Part shown: positions 5,200 to 62,369 of the stretch, piece after piece
Layout: every line of letters begins with the position of its first letter
Position numbering within the stretch: position 1 is the first letter of the stretch
Origin: Eledone cirrhosa
Lineage: Eukaryota
Assembly (NCBI GenBank): GCA_964016885.1
Contig: OZ024743.1
Coordinates: 60,636,001-60,700,000 of the forward strand
Length of the DNA: 64,000 nt
Reading direction: 5' to 3'
The notes under the pieces: generated by a model
Database searches by the model: none
What the model saw: only the letters and a program-made list of their open reading frames with translations
What the model was told of the DNA's origin: nothing
Position numbers and translations under genes: made by a program

Positions 5200-5706
<507 letters not shown>

Positions 5707-5707
5707 G

Positions 5708-5871
5708 TCCCAAGCTTCTGATACCATCAACATTATAAACACAGAGCTGGCATTTCTAAAGAACTGACTAACTGCCTGATGAGGTCATAGCCATTCAATG
5801 GCTATCATCGAAATATATATACCAGTAAATAAAGGATTATAAGTTCATGCAATTGACTTATGTTTCGTCAC
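5708..5871 (+). mobile_element. About 163-bp hammerhead mini-element family D, copy 1
   Basis: Same ends (tcccaag...gtcac) as 41211-41373; actgc CTGATGA..atagccat/atggctat..GAAA tatatata|ccagt; (TA)n on both sides. Confidence 0.8.
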
Positions 5872-5874
5872 TAT

Positions 5875-5937
<63 letters not shown>

Positions 5938-12890: not shown

Positions 12891-13186
12891 AACAACAAAA
12901 CGCATGGCTTTGTAGTCAAGGAATTCATTTTCCCAGCAAGAAATTTCAGGTTCACTTTTATTGTTACACTCTGGAAGTCTTCTATTAAATATTAACCAAT
13001 GGCGTATGAGTGAAATTTGGTAAACGGAAACTACAGAATCGCGTCAAATCTCTCTCTCTCTCTTTCTCCCTCTCTCTCTCTCCCCCCCTCTCTCTTTCTA
13101 TCTCTCTCTCTTTCTCCCTCTCTCTCTCCTCCCCCTCTCTCTTTCTATCTCTCTCTCTCTCTCTATCGTTAACAATCATATATATA

Positions 13187-13387
13187 TAGAAGTGGTTACA
13201 CAACAGTTAGTTCACCATACCGAGAACAATTGTTTCACCTTAGCGGATCCTCAGCTGAGGATCCGCTAAGGTGAAACAATTGTTCTCGGTATGGTGAACT
13301 AACTGTTGTGTAACCACTTCTACCTAACTCGTCCCATGGACTGAGTGATCTACCACTACGGATATTACCTTCCAGTGTTCTACCACT
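13187..13387 (+). mobile_element. Fold-back mini-element family C; perfect 136-bp palindrome with hammerhead motif
   Basis: 13187-13322 perfect 68-bp arms centred on cag|ctg; CTGAGGA t cc gctaa gg t GAA ac aatt gt T|ctc; 65-nt tail; homolog 52817-53029. Confidence 0.85.
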
Positions 13388-13517
13388 ATATATATATATA
13401 TAAAGGACGATTTCTTATGTCTTCATTATGTTTATGACGGTGTCGATAAAATAAAGTACCAGTAATGCACTGGGTAATTGCTGGCCTTGTGCCTAAAGTA
13501 GAGACAATTATGTTTAT

Positions 13518-16002: not shown

Positions 16003-16018
16003 ATATATATATATATAG

Positions 16019-17062
<1,044 letters not shown>

Positions 17063-21909: not shown

Positions 21910-22104
21910 GTTTTATACAATTATTCCTTAAACAACCCTATCCAGTAATAAAATACAAGTCAAAACTAACCCGAAACAAACCCCACTAATTAGAATAACC
22001 CAGTTAAATAGAAACAAAATTAGAAACAGAATTAAAACCACAACAGGAAACCTCATTGTACTGTAAATGTCATACAAAAGTCTGGTGACTGATCATATGG
22101 TTAA

Positions 22105-22430
22105 TAACTGTTTCTACTTCAGGTACAAGGCGAGTAATTACTCCAGTGCATTACTGGTGTTTTATTTTATTGATCCCGTAAAGATGAAAGTCAAAGTTAA
22201 CCTCACTAGGATTTGAACTCTATGCTGCAAAGCAGGCACAACACCAGCAGTTTGGGATCGAGAAGTAAGGTTGATTGTGTAGACTCAGTACATGACTGGT
22301 ACTAAATGTTATCGAGCTTGAAAGGAAGAAACCAAAGTTGGGCATGATGGGATTTGAACTTAGAAAGTTAAGAGCAGAAGAAATATTGGGTAGTATTTCT
22401 TCCGACGCTCTAACAATTCTACCACCCTTC
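22105..22430 (-). mobile_element. Diverged Nin-type SINE copies
   Basis: Similarity to 59945-60530. Confidence 0.6.
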
Positions 22431-26366: not shown

Positions 26367-26403
26367 ACTTCTGATGAAGGACTACCGTCTGAAACGTTAA
26401 GAC
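26367..26403 (+). ncRNA. Minimal hammerhead motif (family H)
   Basis: ctt CTGATGA a ggac tacc gtct GAAACGTT|aag; homologs at 44682 and degenerate 2385-2420. Confidence 0.6.
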
Positions 26404-34869: not shown

Positions 34870-35131
34870 ATGGGCTTCGATTGGCAGTATCGGTAGAGGA
34901 TCGAACGCCATGCTTTGACGCATAGAGTTAAGGCCCTTGCCATTGTGAGTTCAAATCCGGCCGAGGTTAACTTTGCCTTTCATCCTTACGGGGTCGATAA
35001 AATAAAGTACCAGTAATACACTGGGTAATTGCTGGCCTTGTGCCAAAAGTAGAAACTGTTATTTCCATGAAGACAACATAGACACTTTTGTCTATGTTGT
35101 CTTCCTGGTCCCTCTTACCGCAGACACGCCT

Positions 35132-35165
<34 letters not shown>

Positions 35166-35360
35166 CACTGAGTACTATGGTTTGGCAGTATCGGTAGACA
35201 GTCAGTATCGATAGAGCTTTGCAGCACGGAGTTATGGCCCTTTACGTTATGAGTCCAAATCCGCCGAGGTTAACTTTGCCTTTCATCCTTACGGGGTCGA
35301 TAAAATAATGTACCAGTAATACACTGGGTATTTGCTGGCCTTGTACCAAAAGTAGAAACA
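34870..35360 (+). mobile_element. Two Nin-type SINE copies
   Basis: tggcagtatcggtaga..gagttcaaatcc..gcctttcatccttacggggtcgataaaat. Confidence 0.75.
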
Positions 35361-35379
35361 ATTATTATTATTATATATA

Positions 35380-35690
35380 TAAGACCCCCTTTGGTCACGA
35401 ATGACGATATGATTTTCACCTAGGAAGTTTCCCTCCGAGGCACAAGTCCGGGAAAGGTTGCTTTTGAGGAAGACCAGCAGTCGTCCATGCATACCAGTCT
35501 CCTATCTACCGATTATGTCCAATGAAAAGGCTAAGGCCGATACAGCTTGACACCAGTCACGCCGCAGTTCATTTATACAGCTGAAATAAAGCGTCTTGCA
35601 CAAGGACACAACGCATCACCAGGTCCGAGAATCCAACTCACAACCTTTCGATTGCAAGCCCAATGCTCTAACTACTAAGCCATACACTCT
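35380..35690 (-). mobile_element. tRNA-derived SINE of the second family, near full length
   Basis: rc head tggcttagtagttagagc..gttggattc..gtgtccttgtgcaagacgctttatttca. Confidence 0.7.
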
Positions 35691-37758: not shown

Positions 37759-38185
37759 TTGGTAAACGGAATAGAAAATGCTGACAAATTGTTCACAGTT
37801 GAAAAATGGTTTAATTAAGAATAAAAGAGTATTAGTGATTGTATGGGTTAGTATTCAGTTGTGGTTTTAAGTTTTTAAGTTTTTACCGGTTGCGCATTTC
37901 TAAATGCTTTTCAAAAATAATTTTGAGATAGAGTGTCCATGCTGTTTGCTCTGATCTGAGCAAACAGCACGGACACTCTATCTCAAAATTATTTTTGAAA
38001 AGCATTTAGAAATGCGCAACCGGTAAAAACTTAAAAACTTAAAACCACAACTGAATACTAACCCATACAATCGCTAATACTCTTTTATTCCTAATTAAAC
38101 CATTTTTCAACTGTGAACAATTTGTCAGCATTTTCTATTCCGTTTACCAATATATAATAACTTGTGTGTTACACCTCTATTCTTT

Positions 38186-38984: not shown

Positions 38985-39115
38985 TACACACATATATATA
39001 AATAAAGTATAAACATTTTATTCTAAACTTTCTTTAACAACGCATACTATACTGAATCTTTACTCTTAAATGGACATCTTATCATTTTGTGACACGTCAT
39101 ATATATATATGTATG

Positions 39116-39146
<31 letters not shown>

Positions 39147-40120
39147 TCAGCTCAAGCGACTCTGCGCAAATCACCGATTTAGTTGGAATCTATCTATTAC
39201 ATAACATCAGAGCTGAAATCCAACCCTTGCAAGGCGGAATATATAGGGACGACGCCCTATTTGCAGTCCACAATTGCACTAATCGAGACATTGACTTGCT
39301 CAAAAAACAATTACATAGATTTTTTTTTAAATAACGGTCTCTCTATCACCATCGAGCCGAACCATAAGGTAGTAAACTTCCTGGACGTTACCCTAGATCT
39401 TAACAACAACTTATATTACCCTTATCATAAACCAGGTGAAATACTTACATATATTAACCCACACTCTAACCACCCACCGGCAGTCATCAGAGCAGTCATC
39501 AAATATATCTCGTATAGGATCTCTATGGTATCCGCAAATGAGGAGATATTTATAAACCATGCGGCATATTATAATAAGGCTCTTTCTGAATCTGGTTATG
39601 AACAGTCCATTTACTACATACCTAAATGCCATAACACAGCACTTCACTGCAACCATAATAAACTTAACACTAGAACTAGAAATACTTTAGCATATAGCCA
39701 GATTCGCCGGTATTTTAGCAGTAATAGCACCTATACAGGGAACCGTACTGATGGCAGAGGCCTACCTCCCACTCCCAGTAGCAGACTCAAAATCAACCCT
39801 AGAATAGGAATGAGCAATGGGATGACAAATAACAAATGCCCAGGTAATAATAACCCTATGAAGGCCCCTGCCAACTCCACTAGAACCCCTAGAAGGAATA
39901 GGCCTAGAAATATCACCTGGCTTAACCCCCATTCTCATCTAACTTAGCGCCTAATATCCCTGAACGCTTCTTCTAGGACAGTATAACTCCCACACCGCGG
40001 TACCCCCCCCCCCCCATATACATCACGCCACTACACCAGTAATTACTCTAGTAGCATACCTCCCCATCTAATCGTTCTAGCACGCACCAACCACATAGTT
40101 TAAACAACCCTACTCTCACT

Positions 40121-40567
40121 AACCGCAGCAGTAACTGCAACTGCCGTTACCCTAATGCATGCCCACTAAACGGACAATGCCTTACACCCAATCTAGTTTA
40201 TAGGTGCACAGTTAAAACAGCATCGCATACCAGCTCCTATATTGGCTCTACCTCTAACCCTTTTAAGGTACGCTATAACGCGCACTCATTTTCCTTCCGA
40301 GACTCTAGCCATAGATGTTCGACATCTCTAGCTAGGCTCATTAAAAACCTTAAATTAACCAACATTGAACACTCACTAACATGGGATATCTTGGTTAGAG
40401 CCCACCCGTTCAATGGACGAAAAAACTCTTGTGATCTCTGTCTTACCGAAGCCTATTACATAACTCTATCACGACATCTACCGATTAATGATAGAACGGA
40501 GGTAACTATTAGCTGTCAACGTCGAAGGGCTAATTCCTTCGCCAACAGAATATTTGACCCAACGTAG
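40121..40567 (+). CDS. GIY-YIG endonuclease domain of the PLE (no ATG, absent from ORF track)
   Basis: Hand translation: CNCRYPNACPLNGQCLTPNLVYRC..SYIGSTSNPFKVRYNAHSFSF..WDIL..CDLCLTE..INDRTE..C, stop at 40565-40567. Confidence 0.85.
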   Translation, partial: NRSSNCNCRYPNACPLNGQCLTPNLVYRCTVKTASHTSSYIGSTSNPFKVRYNAHSFSFRDSSHRCSTSLARLIKNLKLTNIEHSLTWDILVRAHPFNGRKNSCDLCLTEAYYITLSRHLPINDRTEVTISCQRRRANSFANRIFDPT

Positions 40568-40929
40568 TCATCTAATTCCACTTTTTCTAATACCTAACAT
40601 GTTAAATAGTTATAGCTAACTTAGATAATTATAAGTTATATTGTCTCTCACTTAAACTCATTAGCACTTCTTAACTATAAACCACCTACAATTTCTAATT
40701 TCTCGAGGAGTTACTTCCTCTGAAACCAGTCTCTAATTAGTAAGGTAAATATGTCCTTTGGCGGCCATCTTGTTACCCATAGGCAGATCTCGCATAACGC
40801 AGCCTCGACAGAAGAATATTGCTCGGCTATGGCAGACAATAGATAGACCCAGGACACCATAGTCAAATACCAATATATGGAACATTACATTCATGTAACC
40901 ATCTTTCTTTAATTTATATTCCTTTTGAA

Positions 40930-41048
40930 GTTCCGATGAACTGCTCCAATTTTTCCTAAGTTAATTATCTTCAACTGAACCAGATCAATAATGATCTATA
41001 ATCATTTGATCCAGAAGCATTATATGGAGTAGCGAAACAATTGTAAAC
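40930..41048 (+). ncRNA. Hammerhead motif in the PLE 3' UTR
   Basis: gtt CCGATGA a ctgctcca...tggagtag c GAA ac aatt gt A|aac. Confidence 0.72.
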
Positions 41049-41168
41049 GGACATTATTAGTATTATTATTATTATTATTTACATTCCTTACATTAAAGTA
41101 CAACTATGTTGACAATCTTTAAATAATGTCTTCCTTGTGAAATTTGTGGTCTTGTTTTGATTACCTAA

Positions 41169-41210
<42 letters not shown>

Positions 41211-41214
<4 letters not shown>

Positions 41215-41373
41215 AAGGCTCTGATACCATCAACACTATAAAGACAGAGCTGCCATATCTAAGAACTGACTAACTGCCTGATGAGGTTAGAGCCATTCAA
41301 TGGCTATCATCGAAATATATATAGCAGTAAATAAAGGATTATGAGTTCATGCAATTGACTTATGTTTCGTCAC
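41211..41373 (+). mobile_element. Family D hammerhead mini-element, copy 2
   Basis: actgc CTGATGA..agccat/atggct..GAAA tatata TA|gcagt (5-bp stem I, 41273-41328). Confidence 0.82.
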
Positions 41374-43292: not shown

Positions 43293-43670
43293 AGGGCGGT
43301 GGTTTGGCAGAATCGGTAGAGCGTCGGACATCATGCTTAGCGGCATAAGATTACGGCCCATTAGGTTCAAATCTCGCCAAGGTTAGCTTTGCTTTTCATT
43401 AACACCATGATGTGTGGCAGCGTAGAGAAAAGATATTGTGTTGTTTAAAAAAATTGCATCTGATTTAAGCCCAAGGCCAACAATTTTTGGGGAGGGGAAA
43501 GTCGACTAAATCAACCTCAGTGCAATACTGGTACTTTATTTTATCGGCCCTCTAAGGATGAAAGGCAAAGCTAGCCTCGGCAAGATTTAAACTCGGATCG
43601 TAAAGGGGTGTAACCCTATTCCATAAAGCATGTCGTCCGATGCTCTACTGATGTTGCCAATCCACCACCC
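43293..43670. mobile_element. Inverted pair of Nin-type SINEs
   Basis: 43293-43400 (+) and 43460-43670 (-). Confidence 0.7.
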
Positions 43671-44681
43671 TTGTGTTGTGTTGTCAAAAATATCAAAATT
43701 TGTTGTACTTACTCTTTCAGTGCATCACTGTCGTTATCTTCCGGGATAACATTATTGTAATTTTGTCAGCAGGGACCTTGAGAGAAAATCCATCTGAAGT
43801 ATGGTTCTTCGGAGATAAAGAACGAGCGAATGAAAGAACGTGACAGCCTTTTATTGCTTAATTCATATTGTTACAGTGCAGGACCCCTTGGCATAATGAT
43901 TAGCGCACTCTGTCGGAATCCGAAGGAATCACAGTTCGATTTTTTCGGGCATCTTTGTCCGGGTTTTTATACATCAGCAGCGTTATTTTACCAATTTTTT
44001 AGTTCAGTTATCATTTATTGTAATTACCTATTACTACCGTTATCTATGCTGGTACCACGAAATATTCAAATTAAAAAATATTCCAAAACGCTTCTATGGT
44101 CAACTGAATGTTTACACACACACACACACGCACACACACACACACACACACATACATTTGTTTTCTTTTCTTTGTTTTCTTTCATCTTTCTATCTATGCT
44201 GTTTGTTTTATCACACACACATCATTCCAGCAGCAATATTTAATTATCTGTGGCACGATCCAGCATTTTAAAATGTTACTCTCAATTAAATCATGCGAAA
44301 CTATTTTGCTGATTTCAGAGCTGAAGAGGGTGTAGATGTGTGTAAACTTGTCTTCTACATCACCTTTCTATATTTCCTTCTTCCAGTCACTTCTATGCGC
44401 CAACACACTTATTCTCCTCCTCTCGTTTCTATATGTCATCTACGTGTCACCCATCTTGTGGATTGTTTTTCTGCTAATCACTGGCGGCTGGTCTCTGTCC
44501 TCTGATTCATGTTTGCACATCGCTGTCTTTGACAGCATTTAGCTGTTTTAACGGCTGTCTTGCGATGAGTTTTCTTAATATTAAGAGATGGCAACATGAA
44601 TGGACCTATTATTTTTATCTAAAGACATTTTTTCCAATTCCATCCCGCCCGTCCCCTTAATCTATTTTATTTCTCATTCTT

Positions 44682-44717
44682 TCTTCTGATGAAGGACTAG
44701 CGTCCGAAACGTTAAGA
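44682..44717 (+). ncRNA. Minimal hammerhead motif (family H)
   Basis: tctt CTGATGA a ggac tagc gtcc GAAACGTT|aaga; stem III only possible as a dimer through AACGTT. Confidence 0.68.
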
Positions 44718-51947: not shown

Positions 51948-52606
51948 TACGTATGCATGTATGTTTGTATGTTTGTATGTTTGTATGTTTGTATGTATGT
52001 ATCTATATCAAACCGTAATCTTGAAGAAATACGAAAGTCTGAAATATTTACACAAATCCCATAAAAGATTATAATTTCATAAAGATCGGCGGAATTCCAA
52101 GAACTATATATATTTAAGATCCTGTTTTTAAATCCTATGTAAATGGTGAGAGATAGCAAAAGAGACTCATAAGGTGTTGATGACGTAAACATTGCGATTA
52201 CATAAATCTTGGTATTTTCAATGGCTGTTTTTTTTATCTATCAAACTAACGTGATGCGCTGTCTTATATAGTTATTTATTCTGTTACCGCTTACACTCGA
52301 CAGACTGCGGCCATGCTGTGGCAACGCCTTAAAGGGATAAAATCCATCATATTAGCCACATTAACTAATTTCTCGATTGTCATTTTATAGAACTGCTTCG
52401 TCACACAAGGTCAACGTAAACACCGACATGGGCGCACACACACACACGTATATATTATGAAGAATCTTTGTCGTACGGTTAAGCTTCTGCCGATATATAT
52501 ATATATATATGTGTGTGTATGTATATATGTTTGTATATGCATATATATATGTGTGTGTGAGTGTGCGCGCTGCTCGTAGCAATCAATGCTTTGCACATAT
52601 AAACTC

Positions 52607-52695
52607 GCATATCTGACGAGATTTCAAATTAGAGTCGAGCCCCGTTACTTTGAGTGTACCCGGTGCTGATCGATATCGAAACAATTATAATATGC
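52607..52695 (+). ncRNA. Type I hammerhead motif with long stem II
   Basis: gcatat CTGACGA gat...atc GAAA caatta TA|atatgc; 6-bp stem I; stem II insert resembles family G. Confidence 0.72.
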
Positions 52696-52781
52696 CATTA
52701 AAGTTTGTACATATGCTACAACACTGACTTCGATTCTACTTATATATTCTCTCTACTCCTCGCTCTCTCTCTCTCTCTCCT

Positions 52782-53169
<388 letters not shown>

Positions 53170-58832: not shown

Positions 58833-59944
58833 TACATATATATATATGGTATTGCTATATATATATGGCGTTATATATACTTACTGTTATTATACATATA
58901 TGGTGTTATATATACCTTGTGCTAGTATATACGTATGGTGTTGTTATATATTATCTGTCGCAGTGTAATTGACGTTGTTAAGGTTGTCAGTGTTAAAATA
59001 AAAGTCGTTATTCTGCAAGATTATAGGAATATTACACATAATAAAACTCTTCCGGTAGACATTAAACATCAGGTCTCGGCCTCTACTACTACTATTACTA
59101 CTACTACTTTTGCTGATGGTGAGAAGAATAATGATGGAACCACCACCACCACCACCACCACCACCACCACTACTACTATCAACATTTAAAAATATAACAA
59201 TGCGAGTTAATGTAACGGAAAATTGTAATAGCAGCAACGTTATCAACAACAGTTAACAACGACGGCAAGAACAGTATGTATCATTAGCAACACCCGTTTG
59301 CATCGACAGCAACAACAGCTCTCAACAACAGTGAGAACAACTTAAAACATTAGCAAATCAGGTTGCAAGAATAGCAACAACATTTTAGAAATGTAGCAGC
59401 GATACGCTACATGGTTAAAGGTAAGTAGTTTCAGCAATAGTAATAACTGGCGACAAGTTGACAACCATAGCAATGAGATATTCCAACTTTAGCAATAAGA
59501 GTTTACACAACAGCAAAAACAGCTTACACTGATAGCAACAGCAGTTTGCAACATTGGCAAAAAGGTGTTACAACGATAGCAACAACAACCATGCGCAACG
59601 GCAATAACAGGTCACAACGGTTGCAGCAACGGCTATTAGCAGTAGCAAAAACGGTAGCAACAACCGTTTGCAACAACACTATCAATATACTCCAAAGATA
59701 GCAATAACATCTAACGTTAACAACAACCAGAACAATGTGTTGCAACAATTGAAAAACATGTTTGTACGCTAGCAACATGTCCAAAAGATAGCAACGATAG
59801 CAAGCATCTATAGCGTGGGAAACTTACAGCGATAACATCAACAGGTGGCAATACAACAATAACAACAACAGTTAGCCGCAATAGCAAGATCAACTTTGAA
59901 TGATAGCATTGTAACGATAGTTTGTAACAATAGCCTTTTGTAAT

Positions 59945-61181
59945 AATTGTTTCTACGTTAGGCACAAGGCCAGCAATTACCAGTGCATTACTGGTACTTT
60001 ATTTTATCGACCCCGTAAGGATGAAAGGTAAAGTTAACCTTGGTGGGATTTGAACTCAGTTTGTAATAATGGTGTCTAATTTAGGCAAAAGGCCAGCAAT
60101 CTGGGGAGGAGGGGAAAGTCGATTAAATCGACCCCAATACAAAATTAGTACTTTATTTTATCCACCCCGTAATGATGAAAAGCAAAACTAACCTCGGCAA
60201 CTCAGAATGTAAAAAGCCGTAACTCTATGTCGCAAGGCCGGGTGTCCGACGCTCTACCGATTCTGCCAATCCACCGCCTTACCCTGTTGTAATAATGATT
60301 TCTACTATAGGCACAAGGCCAGCAATTTTGGGAGAGGGGAAAGACGATTAAGTCGAACTCAGTGTATTACTTGTGCTTTATTTTATTGATTCCGTAAGGA
60401 TGAAAGGCAAAGCTAACCTCGGAGGGATTTGAACTCAGATCAAAAAGGGGCGTAACTCTATACTGCAAAGCATGGTGTCCGACGCTCTACCGATACTGCC
60501 AATCCACCGCCTTACCCGGTTGTAATATTGCCAACAATTATTTGCAATATTTACATCAGAATATTCAGAGATAATGACAGCAAGCGACCATACCAATTTA
60601 CTGTGAATACCCCATTACTGTGAATAATCCATTTTCTAAATACTTCATTACACACTTTCAATTAATTAAGATTGTTAAATCCAGACGAAATTAACAGGAA
60701 CATGACTTCAACAGTTTATTTATTGGAGGGAAACGGATCTGTTAAATTATCAATAGAGATAAGCTGCTGTGATTGGTGCTGCAAGTATTGATGAATCATA
60801 TCAATAGATCTAGTGCAGTATCCATATAATTGAAGCGGCGGTGCTGCAAAGTCATAAATAAATTTTATTCTGGACTGGCTATTGAACTTCTAAAGTGAAG
60901 CCAGCTGCAGACACTCCTTTTCTATGACACACCTAATGTGTAGTTATTAAGTGTGCTGAATTAAGGTTTCTGATTTAGACACAAGGCCAACACTTTTAGG
61001 AGGAGGGGAAAGTCGATTAAATAAACGCCAGTACGTTACTGGTATTACATTTCATTGACCCAGTAAGGATGAAAGGCAAAGCTAACCTCCCCGGGAGTTG
61101 AACTCAGAACGTAAAGGGACGCAGCTCTATGCCACAAAGCATGTTGTCCGACGCTCAACCGATACTGCCAATCCACCTCCC
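59945..61181 (-). mobile_element. Cluster of Nin-type tRNA-derived SINEs (3 tandem at 59945-60530, one at 60962-61181)
   Basis: rc head ggcggtggattggcag.atcggtagagc..gagttcaaatccc..gcctttcatcctt.cggggtcgataaa. Confidence 0.8.
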
Positions 61182-62369
61182 TTAAGTGTGCTGCCTAATA
61201 ACATCATTTATAGCAAATAATTCCAATGCAGATACTGCAAGACAACATCAGCAACACCGCAATACGACAACATAACACCATAAAAATACAGCACAGCTCC
61301 CTAGCAATACAATTCAAAACAACGCAACACAGTGCACTACGTAAAACACAACACAGTTCAGAGCAACACAAAATCACAACACAACAACACGTGACATACA
61401 ACGCACCACTCAGCAACATAACTCAATAACAACAGAAACAACACACAACACAACAGAACCAACACACAAAACAACTACAACAACAACAACCATAACAAAA
61501 ACCTGAACCACAACCACAACTGCAACAACAACAGTTTAGTTATTAAACTATAACAACAACAATAACAATAACTACATATTTAACTATATATTTACTGGAG
61601 TTGTGTTAACCTAGAGTTAAACCATGGCAACAACAACAACAACAGAATCATTACGCCATAATAGAATTCGGAGCTTGAGTGACTGACATCCCTATAACTG
61701 AATCAGCACAATCACAACACGCTGACAACAACTAGAGTGTCACAATTACAATACACCAACAACAACTACAATAACATCACAATCACAACAGACTAACAAC
61801 AACTACATCACAATTACAACAGCGACAAGATCACAATACAACACACGAACAACTACAGCATTACATTCACAACACGCTAACAACAACTACAACACCATCA
61901 CAATTACAACAGCTACAAGATCACAAATACAACACACCAACAACTACAGCCTTACATTCACAACACGCTACCAACAACTAAAACAGCATCACAATTACAA
62001 TACACCAACAACAGCTGCAATAACAACACAATCACAACATTCTAACAACTACAACACCAACACAAATAACGTTACAATCAAGGCAACAACAGCAACTACA
62101 ACACCACAATTACACAACAATATTAACACCAACAAATAGAAAACCACAAGTACACTGACGTGACAACTACAACACAAATAACCACCCCAAGAATAACATC
62201 ATAATTATATCAGCAATATCACATCTATAACAACAGCTACTATTACAAATATATTACAATAACAATATTCACATCACAATTCCAAGAAAAATACTAACAG
62301 CCACATTACAACCAGAACTACAATACTAACAACATCACCATTTCAAAAATATTAAATATCAACATCACA

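What the first reader, a model, noticed from the sequence alone, without database searches (positions are those of the whole stretch)
39140..41172. Candidate driver: Penelope-like element with RT, un-annotated GIY-YIG domain and 3' hammerhead, inserted in (TA)n
Seen: RT motifs, an open GIY-YIG frame (40121-40567) missed by the ORF track, and a hammerhead whose stem III (GAAAC-AATT-GT) matches family C and nearly matches 52607. (TA)n flanks both ends. Inference: PLEs of this type supply the RT and endonuclease and have a TA-repeat target preference; the short inserts are their 3' ends or parasites.
Basis: partly seen in the sequence, partly recalled or inferred. Interest (0 to 1): 0.75.

Follow-up and report, generated by a model that had tools for sequence, protein, structure and literature searches.

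The report
Dead Hydra-clade Penelope retrotransposon copy
This is a broken, front-truncated copy of a known kind of jumping gene (a Hydra-clade Penelope-like retrotransposon) sitting in a TA microsatellite; it is ordinary, and it cannot itself be the engine that likely moved the short ribozyme-bearing repeats around it.

Summary
Window 39138-41172 carries the C-terminal part of a reverse transcriptase (YRDD at 39242-39253), a stop-free GIY-YIG frame (40055-40567) and a hammerhead-shaped motif (40933-41045). It lies between two (TA)20 tracts.

It is a Penelope-like element of the published Hydra clade: CxCX5C linker, CxxC, (TA)n target, and DKT in longer copies. This copy is dead. It starts at residue 331 of an 806-aa homologue, has frame shifts, a stop and a private 125-bp deletion. 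All family copies I translated are broken, and its RT is only 49-53% identical to the ten other PLE lineages sampled here. It is not a driver.

The genome does hold many stop-free 805-866-aa Hydra-clade ORFs. One short hammerhead family beside this copy (41213-41366) is the 3' end of a different PLE family.

The "hammerhead" has C instead of U at core position 4 (CCGAUGA) and an ~76-nt insert in helix II. Rfam finds nothing. The same C4 core is fixed in two other sampled lineages with intact ORFs. Cleavage is untested.

In 22 of 29 further copies the 3' end abuts (TA)n, against a 6.4% background.

This scan has already reported the same system elsewhere in this genome. It is a new member of a known kind, of low to moderate interest.

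The parts
39099..39139 (.). 5' flanking (TA)n microsatellite, about 20 units
   Evidence: Tandem Repeats Finder. Homology to other copies starts at 39138/39139.
39138..41172 (+). 5'-truncated, decayed copy of a Hydra-clade Penelope-like element (short 3'-end form)
   Evidence: 86-94% identical to other genomic copies over long alignments. Other copies continue upstream into RT motifs A/B and the DKT motif.
39152..39322 (+). RT, end of motif B to motif C (YRDD at 39242-39253), reading frame 2
   Evidence: tblastn of P0002 residues 331-387, 49% identity. Motif coordinates.
39324..39650 (+). RT motifs after YRDD and the thumb-like region (FLDVTLD 39378-39398; KP..Y..SNHP 39423-39476), reading frame 3, so a frame shift lies near 39322-39324
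   Evidence: tblastn of P0002 residues 387-494, 54% identity. Motif coordinates.
39651..39947 (+). Decayed RT-EN linker (NITWLNP at 39909-39929), ending in a stop codon at 39945-39947
   Evidence: ORF 39183..39947. The linker pattern matches P0002 'VTWFNPPFS'.
39973..39974 (+). Site of a private 125-bp deletion in the linker
   Evidence: Eleven other sampled copies show the extra ~125-130-bp segment here as a split alignment, and it was read directly in seven of them. L002 and L003 have different deletions in the same region.
40055..40567 (+). GIY-YIG endonuclease frame with the CxCX5C linker (40136-40162), GIY, YIG, R..H and CxxC..E; the family's CxH reads CQR here (40511-40528)
40933..41045 (+). 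Hammerhead-derived three-way junction: core CCGAUGA (C at position 4), helix II 40941-40948 with 41025-41032 around a ~76-nt insert, GAAA, palindromic stem III ACAAUUGU, predicted cut after A41045
   Evidence: Structure scan gave 5 hits in the window against 0.04 in Markov controls. Layout compared with hammerheads of other PLE lineages. Rfam silent.
41046..41172 (+). 3' tail ending ...AATGAATAT, fused to (TA)n (short-form 3' end)
   Evidence: Alignment of 3' ends; tally.
41172..41211 (.). 3' flanking (TA)20 microsatellite

Best explanation
Window 39138-41172 is a dead, 5'-truncated copy of a Hydra-clade Penelope-like retrotransposon lying inside a (TA)n microsatellite, likely put there by target-primed reverse transcription.

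Shown: the copy keeps the C-terminal half of the RT, a decayed linker, a stop-free GIY-YIG frame, and a 3' untranslated region with a hammerhead-derived motif whose core reads CCGAUGA. It has lost the first ~330 codons, changes frame, and carries a stop and a private 125-bp deletion. The family has on the order of a thousand or more copies. Most of them are short 3' ends.

Inferred: a once-active master encoded RT and endonuclease. The endonuclease nicked (TA)n. The freed TA 3' end paired with AU-rich sequence at the RNA 3' end. That would give two preferred 3' ends, ...AAUGAAUAU and a form 185 nt longer ending ...GAACUG. Reverse transcription usually stopped early or switched strand, leaving 5'-truncated copies and inverted 5' pieces.

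The hammerhead-derived motif likely processed tandem transcripts as a dimer in live relatives. Whether the C4 core still cleaves is untested. This copy drives nothing today.
For: Identity:
- tblastn to the intact 806-aa homologue P0002 gives E 2e-37 and 2e-21.
- The protein family has 12,109 library hits at E<=0.001.
- The family profile hits retron RTs across motifs A-C (E 0.0059), and Pfam RVT_1 hits 3 of 29 members.
- In alignment A1 the Hydra-clade signature of Craig et al. 2021 (section 11 read) is present: RW(R/K), DKT in 21 of 26, CxCX5C in 29 of 29, CxxC in 28 of 28, CxH in 28 of 29. The window has CNCRYPNAC and CDLC.
- GIY-YIG fold: model pLDDT 84; Foldseek ranks 1-7 are all GIY-YIG nucleases.

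Dead copy.

Family behaviour:
- At least 2808 and 1718 first-look candidates.
- Copy lengths range from 250 to over 2900 bp in 29 copies.
- 3' junction at (TA)n in 22 of 29 copies, plus 2 imperfect, against a 6.4% background.
- 5' junction at (TA)n in 9 of 26.
- Inverted 3' pieces lie upstream of copies in L010, L012, L014 and L016.

Hammerhead homology:
- The layout and stem I/III boxes match the canonical CUGAUGA hammerheads of related PLEs (L030, L032, L033, L028) and the C4 hammerheads of L029/L034 and the 808-aa family.
- Helix II sequences all differ but still pair, and stem I reads GCU/AGC in five other lineages against GUU/AAC here.
Against: - Pfam gives no RVT_1 hit for this family's RT. 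GIY-YIG is only sub-threshold. No Pfam RT or GIY-YIG hit at E<=0.1 was found for 7 intact ORFs of the genome.
- Foldseek E-values are weak (0.18 or worse).
- No full-length copy of this family was found, so its size and N-terminus rest on longer truncated copies and on a 52%-identical homologue.
- Phylogenetic placement against reference PLE clades was not done.
- For the hammerhead: Rfam is silent, the core has C4, the 10.1/11.1 pair is A·C in this copy, stem I has 3 pairs, and the fold z-score is -0.57. In the minimum-energy fold the core nucleotides pair with the 3' strand.
- My structure scanner was written after I had seen the motif, so its control is partly circular.
- The TPRT steps are inferred from junctions, not observed.
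Confidence: 0.9

Rival explanations
1. One reading: this element is a candidate autonomous driver that supplies RT and endonuclease to the short hammerhead inserts of the window.
For: RT and GIY-YIG motifs and a hammerhead-like 3' motif are present. It shares the 12-nt stem III box with family C and the 52607 type. It sits in (TA)n like the short inserts.
Against: The copy starts at residue 331 of 806 and has a frame shift, a stop and a 125-bp deletion. All 4 translated family copies have stops in every frame. The window copy is 86-94% identical to other copies over long alignments. blastn found no homology to mini-families A, C or 52607 beyond the box. Mini-family A belongs to another PLE family. 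Stop-free 805-866-aa ORFs exist in other lineages, which are better candidates.
Confidence: 0.02
2. The 3' motif is a working hammerhead. The U4-to-C core is a tolerated natural variant that still self-cleaves, probably as a dimer through the palindromic stem III, and processes PLE transcripts.
For: The C4 core is fixed in three sampled lineages: 26 of 29 copies of the window family (the other 3 are truncated, deleted or read CCGATGC), 19 of 19 in the 808-aa family, and 8 of 8 compact motifs. Two of these lineages have stop-free ORFs and pseudo-LTRs about 98.7% identical. Helix II and stem I pairing is kept through sequence change. Perreault et al. 2011 state that a U4C variant lowers activity in vitro but still permits viroid infectivity (passage read).
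Against: U4 is otherwise near-invariant. The same motifs also lack the usual G10.1-C11.1 pair (A·G, U·U or A·C). Stem I is short. PLE hammerheads cleave poorly in vitro even with consensus cores (Cervera and de la Pena 2014, passage read). Naiad PLEs proliferate without hammerheads (Craig et al. 2021, passage read). No RNA data could be obtained.
Confidence: 0.4
3. The 3' motif is a catalytically dead relic of a hammerhead, kept for its shape (for example as a recognition or priming structure for the RT) or simply not yet eroded.
For: The core change, loss of G10.1-C11.1, the ~71-76-nt inserts in helix II in two lineages, the 3-bp stem I, Rfam silence and a non-significant fold energy.
Against: The rest of the core (C3, G5, A6, G8, A9, GAAA) and the palindromic stem III are conserved across lineages only ~50% identical in protein. 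That is more than neutral drift would leave.
Confidence: 0.5
4. It is not a PLE at all: a different retroelement, or a free-standing GIY-YIG homing endonuclease gene next to unrelated sequence.
For: Pfam does not call RVT_1 here, and GIY-YIG is sub-threshold.
Against: RT-like and GIY-YIG parts are colinear in one 806-aa ORF in P0002 and in stop-free 805-866-aa ORFs of this genome. The clade-specific motif set is present. Pseudo-LTR partial tandems and inverted 5' pieces occur, as described for PLEs.
Confidence: 0.02

Closest known systems
Hydra clade of Penelope-like elements (Craig, Yushenova, Rodriguez and Arkhipova 2021, PMC8557442; section 11 read in full, other passages by search; supplements not seen)
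   Same: Single ORF with RT then C-terminal GIY-YIG. DKT instead of DKG, an RW(K/R) motif, a CxCX5C linker, CxxC and CxH around the conserved E and N, a divergent RT motif B, insertion into (TA)n, and a hammerhead in the terminal repeats. The nearest Atlas clusters are recorded from Cnidaria, Mollusca and Arthropoda, the phyla named in the paper.
   Different: The paper calls the clade's hammerheads canonical; this family and two other sampled lineages here have a C4 core, and two of the three have a long helix II insert. The paper describes elements as generally under 3 kb and reports 'a small number' of families outside cnidarians. Here hammerhead-to-hammerhead units of intact relatives are 3.5-4.8 kb, and the genome gives 82,012 first-look protein candidates with many stop-free ORFs. 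Tree placement against the paper's families was not tested.
Minimal, dimer-type hammerheads in PLE pseudo-LTRs (Cervera and de la Pena 2014, PMC4209133; passages read)
   Same: Located in the terminal repeat. Long helix II (7-8 bp), short helix I, 2-bp stem III with a palindromic loop (ACAAUUGU) that would allow dimers. Many sequence families with compensatory changes.
   Different: C at core position 4; the paper's reported core variant is U3-A8. An insert of ~76 nt in helix II. G10.1-C11.1 is not kept in most copies.
Animal non-LTR retrozymes and their derivation from PLE termini (Cervera and de la Pena 2020, PMC7229834, listing and abstract start only; Li, Clavereau and Pollet 2026, bioRxiv 10.64898/2026.07.22.740005, abstract and passages read)
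   Same: Short hammerhead-bearing repeats coexist with PLEs and match PLE termini. Here mini-family A is the last 154 bp of a PLE 3' UTR.
   Different: The element under review is coding, so it is not a retrozyme. Mini-family A occurs as dispersed single units in (TA)n with variable 5' ends, that is, as truncated PLE tails rather than tandem arrays.
Natural U4C hammerhead variant of a viroid, as cited by Perreault et al. 2011 (PMC3088659; passages read, original reference not seen)
   Same: The same core position carries C instead of U in a natural, biologically maintained hammerhead.
   Different: A plant viroid rather than an animal retrotransposon. Activity of the present motif is untested.

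Membership tests
Penelope-like elements, C-terminal EN+ architecture | One ORF with a reverse transcriptase followed by a C-terminal GIY-YIG endonuclease | tested here: met
   The window aligns colinearly to P0002 residues 331-494 and 628-798. P0002 and the genome's stop-free 805-866-aa ORFs carry both parts. In the window the ORF is broken.
Penelope-like elements, C-terminal EN+ architecture | The N-terminal part is a reverse transcriptase | tested here: met
   The family profile hits retron RTs through motifs A-C (E 0.0059). RVT_1 hits 3 of 29 members (best E 3e-4). YRDD is invariant in 29 of 29. Support is weak: Pfam finds no RT in P0001, P0002 or 7 intact ORFs.
Penelope-like elements, C-terminal EN+ architecture | The C-terminal part has the GIY-YIG fold and catalytic residues | tested here: met
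Penelope-like elements, C-terminal EN+ architecture | Pseudo-LTRs from partial tandems, and inverted 5'-truncated pieces | tested here: met
   Met at family and relative level only. L018 has 1297-bp direct repeats at 98.7%. Inverted 3' pieces lie upstream of copies L010, L012, L014 and L016. The window copy itself is a single truncated unit with neither feature.
Penelope-like elements, C-terminal EN+ architecture | RT groups with PLEs (sister to telomerase RTs) in a phylogeny | not tested
Hydra clade of PLEs (Craig et al. 2021) | Linker Zn-finger modified to CxCX5C | tested here: met
   CNCRYPNAC at 40136-40162. The three cysteines are invariant in 29 of 29 and 33 of 33 sequences.
Hydra clade of PLEs (Craig et al. 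2021) | DKG motif modified to DKT, and an RWK motif near the N-terminus | tested here: met
   Not in the window copy, which is truncated. A longer copy, L016, reads SDKTKN. In A1, T is at the DKT position in 21 of 26; W in 24 of 25, followed by R in 11 and K in 10.
Hydra clade of PLEs (Craig et al. 2021) | [quoted passage not shown] | tested here: inconclusive
   CxxC (CDLC, 40430-40441) is present. CxH reads CQR in the window but CQH in L014 and L016, and is present in 28 of 29 members. Absence of CCHH was judged only by eye, without an alignment to CCHH-bearing PLE endonucleases.
Hydra clade of PLEs (Craig et al. 2021) | Insertion into (TA)n | tested here: met
   (TA)20 on both sides of the window copy. 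22 of 29 further 3' junctions abut (TA)n, against 6.4% background.
Hydra clade of PLEs (Craig et al. 2021) | Short element (generally under 3 kb) | tested here: inconclusive
   No full-length copy of this family was sampled; the longest is about 2.9 kb and lacks ~85 residues. Intact relatives have hammerhead-to-hammerhead spacings of 3527, 4199, 4181 and 4849 bp.
Hydra clade of PLEs (Craig et al. 2021) | Canonical hammerhead readily detected | tested here: not met
   The core is CCGAUGA in 26 of 29 and in all 13 full 3' ends sampled first, never CUGAUGA. Rfam is silent. Canonical CUGAUGA hammerheads do occur in other related lineages of the same genome (L028, L030, L032, L033).
Hammerhead ribozyme, type I, PLE/dimer form | Conserved core C3 U4 G5 A6 N7 G8 A9 ... 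G12 A13 A14 A15.1 ... U16.1 H17 | tested here: not met
   All positions fit except U4, which is C (40934).
Hammerhead ribozyme, type I, PLE/dimer form | Three helices around the core, with helix III short and palindromic | tested here: met
   Helix II is 7-8 bp (CUGCUCCA with UGGAGUAG). Stem III is ACAAUUGU. Stem I has only 3 bp (GUU with AAC). Helix II also appears in the unconstrained minimum-energy fold.
Hammerhead ribozyme, type I, PLE/dimer form | Self-cleavage at the predicted site | not testable with these tools
   No RNA run holding the sequence was listed.
Animal non-LTR retrozymes | Non-coding, short hammerhead-bearing unit, typically in tandem | tested here: not met
   The element carries RT and EN coding remnants and is a single unit. 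This family was considered only for the neighbouring short inserts.

The most novel reading that the evidence does not exclude
Some Hydra-clade Penelope-like elements in this genome have fixed a hammerhead with C instead of the near-invariant U at core position 4 (CCGANGA). This was seen in three sampled lineages: this dead family and two with stop-free ORFs and near-identical terminal repeats. In two of the three lineages, helix II also carries a 71-76-nt insert. If these motifs still cleave, they are a natural animal U4C hammerhead class that standard descriptors and Rfam miss. If they do not, active PLEs keep the three-way junction for a non-catalytic job in retrotransposition.
Probability: 0.35. 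Interest if true: 0.5.

Novelty: new member of a known kind. Interest (0 to 1): 0.3.

Why it matters
The practical value lies in annotation. Pfam recognised neither the RT nor the endonuclease in this copy, in its 806-aa homologue, or in seven intact ORFs of the same genome. A large, apparently live population of Hydra-clade PLEs would therefore be missed by domain-based pipelines. The clade was published as rare outside cnidarians. Here one 3-Gb animal genome shows at least ten lineages only ~50% identical in protein, many with stop-free ORFs, all tied to a genome in which (TA)n covers 6.4% of this window.

The copy also helps to explain the swarm of short hammerhead repeats. At least one such family is simply the truncated tail of a PLE. 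The fixed C4 core across lineages gives a direct test of whether hammerhead catalysis is needed for PLE transposition. None of this changes the class: the element is a known kind, and this copy is dead.

Tried and rejected
- **Rfam.** I ran gathering score over the whole window, E<=10 over the whole window (150 of 302 rows shown, all microsatellite-driven miRNA look-alikes, no hammerhead), and E<=10 on 40560-41370. No hammerhead appeared, not even for the canonical CUGAUGA motif at 41278-41315, so Rfam's silence is weak evidence here.
- **Intron idea.** The ~125-bp segment missing at 39973/39974 is not bounded by GT..AG on either strand, so it is not a spliced intron. I first noted the deletion as shared with L002 and L003; a closer alignment showed those copies have different deletions.
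- **Pfam** on the window ORFs, P0001, P0002 and 7 intact ORFs: no RVT_1.
- **The search for homologous proteins** (longer lengths) gave 1 hit only, P0002.
- **Earlier notes by place:** none for this place.
- **RNA evidence:** no RNA holder listed.
- **Covariation.** MAFFT of hammerhead regions from 8 sources aligned the 5' and 3' boxes but not helix II, so no formal covariation count was made. My L012 coordinates in that call and missed part of the motif, and that row is not used.
- **Inverted 5' flanks.** By eye, at least 9 of the 17 'other' 5' flanks are reverse complements of parts of the element. That number is not computed.
- **The 52607-type family.** Its link to a PLE parent stays open. 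Two of 19 loci have PLE coding sequence within 1.5 kb, both in inverted orientation.
- **Bias in counts.** All genome counts are lower bounds and come from the best-scoring candidates only (40 to 56 scored per search), which biases samples toward well-preserved copies.
Full report
**What is at the coordinates**

The region 39099-41211 reads (TA)20, then 2.03 kb of unique sequence, then (TA)20. Stop-to-stop frames include 39056..39334, 39183..39947 and 40055..40567 on the plus strand.

An intact 806-aa homologue from the public protein collection (P0002) aligns to the window in three colinear pieces:
- residues 331-387 to 39152-39322 (frame 2; contains YRDD at 39242-39253);
- residues 387-494 to 39324-39650 (frame 3);
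- residues 628-798 to 40055-40549 (frame 2).

The copy, however, begins in the middle of RT motif B and changes frame. It runs into a stop at 39945-39947. It also lacks about 125 bp at 39973/39974. Eleven other sampled copies show this segment as a split alignment, and I read it directly in seven of them. Two further copies have different deletions in the same linker, so the window's deletion is private among the copies sampled. P0002 hit no other place in the 64-kb window.

**What kind of element it is**

Pfam is nearly blind to it. The only hit is a sub-threshold GIY-YIG match (E 0.0098). There is no RVT_1 for a read-through RT of a longer copy (P0001) or for P0002.

The protein family is nevertheless large, with 12,109 library proteins at E<=0.001 and 445 at E<=1e-30. 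A profile of 29 members hits retron reverse transcriptases across motifs A to C (E 0.0059). RVT_1 is found in 3 of 29 members and GIY-YIG in 3 of 29.

Craig et al. 2021 (PMC8557442; section 11 read in full) define a Hydra clade of Penelope-like elements by these features:
- a C-terminal GIY-YIG;
- DKT in place of DKG;
- an RWK motif;
- a CxCX5C linker;
- no CCHH;
- CxxC and CxH around the conserved E and N;
- a hard-to-align RT motif B;
- insertion into (TA)n;
- hammerheads.

In my alignment, DKT is present in 21 of 26 sequences, and W of the RW(R/K) motif in 24 of 25. CxCX5C is in 29 of 29, CxxC in 28 of 28, CxH in 28 of 29, and YRDD in 29 of 29. The window copy shows CNCRYPNAC (40136-40162) and CDLC..E (40430-40450). 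Its CxH has mutated to CQR. A longer copy of the same family reads SDKTKN.

The AlphaFold model of the window's 170-residue frame has pLDDT 84, with the order strand-strand-helix-helix-strand-helix. Foldseek ranks 1-7 are all GIY-YIG nucleases (I-TevI, T4 EndoII, UvrC N-domain), although only at E 0.18-0.49. The nearest Atlas clusters are recorded from Cnidaria, Mollusca and Arthropoda.

I therefore file the element as a Hydra-clade PLE by motif signature.

**The family in its genome**

The window lies in a 3.0-Gb assembly. The 2-kb query gave 2808 first-look candidates, and the last 242 bp gave 1718. These are lower bounds, with only 40 scored each time.

Other copies continue upstream of the window's start into RT motifs A and B and the N-terminal region, with different 5' ends. 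In 29 further copies the length runs from 250 to more than 2900 bp. All four copies that I translated in three frames are full of stops.

Inverted 3' pieces sit directly upstream of truncated copies in L010, L012, L014 and L016. This is the arrangement drawn for PLEs by Craig et al. (figure 2 legend).

There are two 3' ends. The short form ends ...AATGAATAT. The long form is 185 bp longer and ends ...GAACTG.

Of the 29 further copies:
- 11 short forms run straight into (TA)n, and 2 run into imperfect TA-rich sequence;
- 13 are long forms, of which 11 run into (TA)n;
- 3 end in other sequence.

That makes 22 of 29 clean (TA)n junctions. By comparison, 6.4% of window positions lie within 6 nt of a (TA)4 or longer tract. 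At the 5' side, 9 of 26 copies abut (TA)n.

**Is it a driver?**

No. Apart from the damage listed above, the family's RT is only 49-53% identical to each of the ten other PLE lineages I sampled in the genome. No intact member of the family was seen.

The genome does hold plausible drivers. A search with P0002 gave 82,012 first-look candidates. Among the 56 scored places, most are stop-free frames of 805-866 aa. One such lineage (808 aa) shows classical pseudo-LTRs, with 1297-bp direct repeats 98.7% identical.

An 886-bp 3' fragment of another such lineage lies in this window at 16004-16889 on the minus strand. It is 99% identical to copies with an intact ORF and is also flanked by (TA)n.

**The short inserts**

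Mini-family A (41213-41366) sits immediately after the downstream (TA)20. It gave 40 of 40 scored hits covering positions 1-3 to 154 at 95-98% identity.
- In 10 of 19 loci it starts at one point next to (TA)n.
- In 9 of 19 loci it continues upstream for variable lengths, one with an inverted piece.
- In two loci the extension reaches GIY-YIG coding sequence about 1.1-1.25 kb upstream in the same orientation.

Family A is therefore the tail of a PLE, but of a family other than the one under review. blastn of the window against all sampled PLE loci found no match between this PLE and families A, C or 52607.

The 52607-type unit has at least 1562 candidates. It is older (84-89% identity), often occurs in inverted pairs, and is flanked by (CT)n or (TA)n. 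PLE coding sequence lies nearby in 2 of 19 loci, inverted in both. Its parent remains open.

The idea that short hammerhead repeats derive from PLE termini is already in print for vertebrates (Li et al. 2026, passages read).

**The hammerhead**

The 12-nt box shared with family C and the 52607 unit is real (9 matches against 1.0 expected). There is no CUGANGA box upstream of it.

What is there, in every full copy examined, reads: GUU-CCGAUGA-(A or G)-CUGCUCC...~76 nt...GGAGUAG-C-GAAAC-AAUU-GU-A|AAC.

Other Hydra-clade lineages of the genome place a compact motif of the same layout 170-255 nt upstream of the ORF and again in the 3' repeat:
- UGCU-CUGAUGA-...-GAAAC-ACU-GU-U|AGCA in three lineages;
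- UGCU-CCGAAGA-AUCCAAAC-CUCG-GUUUGGAG-GAAAC-AGCU-GU-A|AGCA in the 832/826-aa lineage;
- a long-helix-II CCGAAGA form in the 808-aa lineage.

The C4 core is found in 26 of 29, 19 of 19 and 8 of 8 motifs of the three C4 lineages. Helix II sequences all differ but still pair. Stem I reads GCU/AGC in five lineages and GUU/AAC here.

So the motif is homologous to PLE hammerheads and has one fixed core change. Perreault et al. 2011 note that a U4C variant lowers activity in vitro yet still supports viroid infectivity (passage read). Cervera and de la Pena 2014 report another PLE core variant, U3-A8 (passage read).

Two literature searches turned up no paper on C4 cores in PLEs, which is weak evidence of absence.

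The case for activity is limited. Rfam is silent. The fold is no more stable than shuffles, and the minimum-energy structure pairs part of the core. Cleavage is untested.

**Mechanism**

Shown: the domain content, the damage, the variable 5' ends, the inverted pieces, the two preferred 3' ends and the (TA)n junctions.

Inferred from what is established for PLEs and other target-primed elements: the endonuclease nicks (TA)n, and the TA 3' end primes on AU-rich sequence at the RNA 3' end. Reverse transcription stops early or switches strand. The 5' join uses TA microhomology. In live relatives the terminal hammerhead likely trims tandem transcripts.

**Earlier notes of this scan**

Notes on other pieces of the same genome describe the same system of hammerhead repeats in (TA)n next to PLEs (e1-8665226, e1-8665350). 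They also describe variant-core hammerheads in its Hydra-clade PLEs (e1-9564315, e1-9598942). My results agree with them. I did not test those notes on their own DNA.

**Verdict**

This is a correct sighting of a Penelope-like element, of the published Hydra clade. The copy is a fossil, not a driver. It is a new member of a known kind. The one less ordinary trait is the family-wide C4 hammerhead core with an expanded helix II.

Noticed in passing
window 16004-16889 (minus strand): An 886-bp 3'-terminal fragment, 98.5-99.2% identical to PLE copies elsewhere that have stop-free 826/832-aa ORFs (L034, L029). It carries a compact hammerhead with core CCGAAGA at 16226-16264 and has (TA)n on both sides. 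It looks like a recent 5'-truncated insertion of a live-looking lineage.
   Followed up: partly
window 41213-41366 and about 5700-5880: A 154-bp hammerhead unit (canonical CUGAUGA, palindromic stem III AUAUAUAU). It is the last 154 bp of the ~1.1-kb 3' UTR of a different Hydra-clade PLE family. Ten of 19 genomic copies start at one fixed point next to (TA)n, and 9 of 19 extend further upstream.
   Followed up: yes
window 13170-13400 and 52820-53030: 'Family C': a palindromic unit, with an inverted partial copy joined head-to-head to a direct copy. It carries CUGAGGA...GAAACAAUUGU, lies between microsatellites, and is also present beside a PLE copy in L012.
   Followed up: no
window 52561-52745: The 52607-type unit has a canonical CUGACGA core, a 6-bp stem I and a ~52-nt helix II insert. 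It has at least 1562 genomic candidates at 84-89% identity, is often in inverted pairs, and is flanked by (CT)n as often as by (TA)n. This may point to a different target preference.
   Followed up: partly
G000 genome-wide (loci L017-L034): There are many stop-free 805-866-aa Hydra-clade PLE ORFs in at least ten lineages about 50% identical to each other. Seven intact ORFs tested against Pfam gave no RVT_1 or GIY-YIG hit at E<=0.1, so domain-based annotation would miss them.
   Followed up: partly
window 35250-35380, 59940-60066, 13437-13517, 22101-22220, 34879-35064, 43459-43672, 60064-60515, 60959-61184: A very abundant short repeat also lies inside or beside several PLE loci. One end reads ...GTAGAAACAATTATTATT, which resembles the hammerhead stem III box and explains two of the nine box matches. 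Its nature (possibly a SINE) was not examined.
   Followed up: no
window 37905-38004: A near-perfect 100-nt hairpin scores 76-77 bits for the mir-3913 model on both strands, below the gathering score of 100. It is probably an inverted repeat of a mobile element.
   Followed up: no
window 26371-26398 and 44686-44713; L055: A compact canonical hammerhead (CUGAUGA-A-GGAC-UAGC-GUCC-GAAAC-GUU...) occurs twice in the window. The same type lies about 100 nt upstream of the coding part of the PLE copy whose 3' end is mini-family A.
   Followed up: no
whole window: (TA)n of four or more units covers 6.4% of the window (118 tracts of six or more units). CTGATGA...GAAA patterns occur 12 times against 1.15 expected.
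   Followed up: partly
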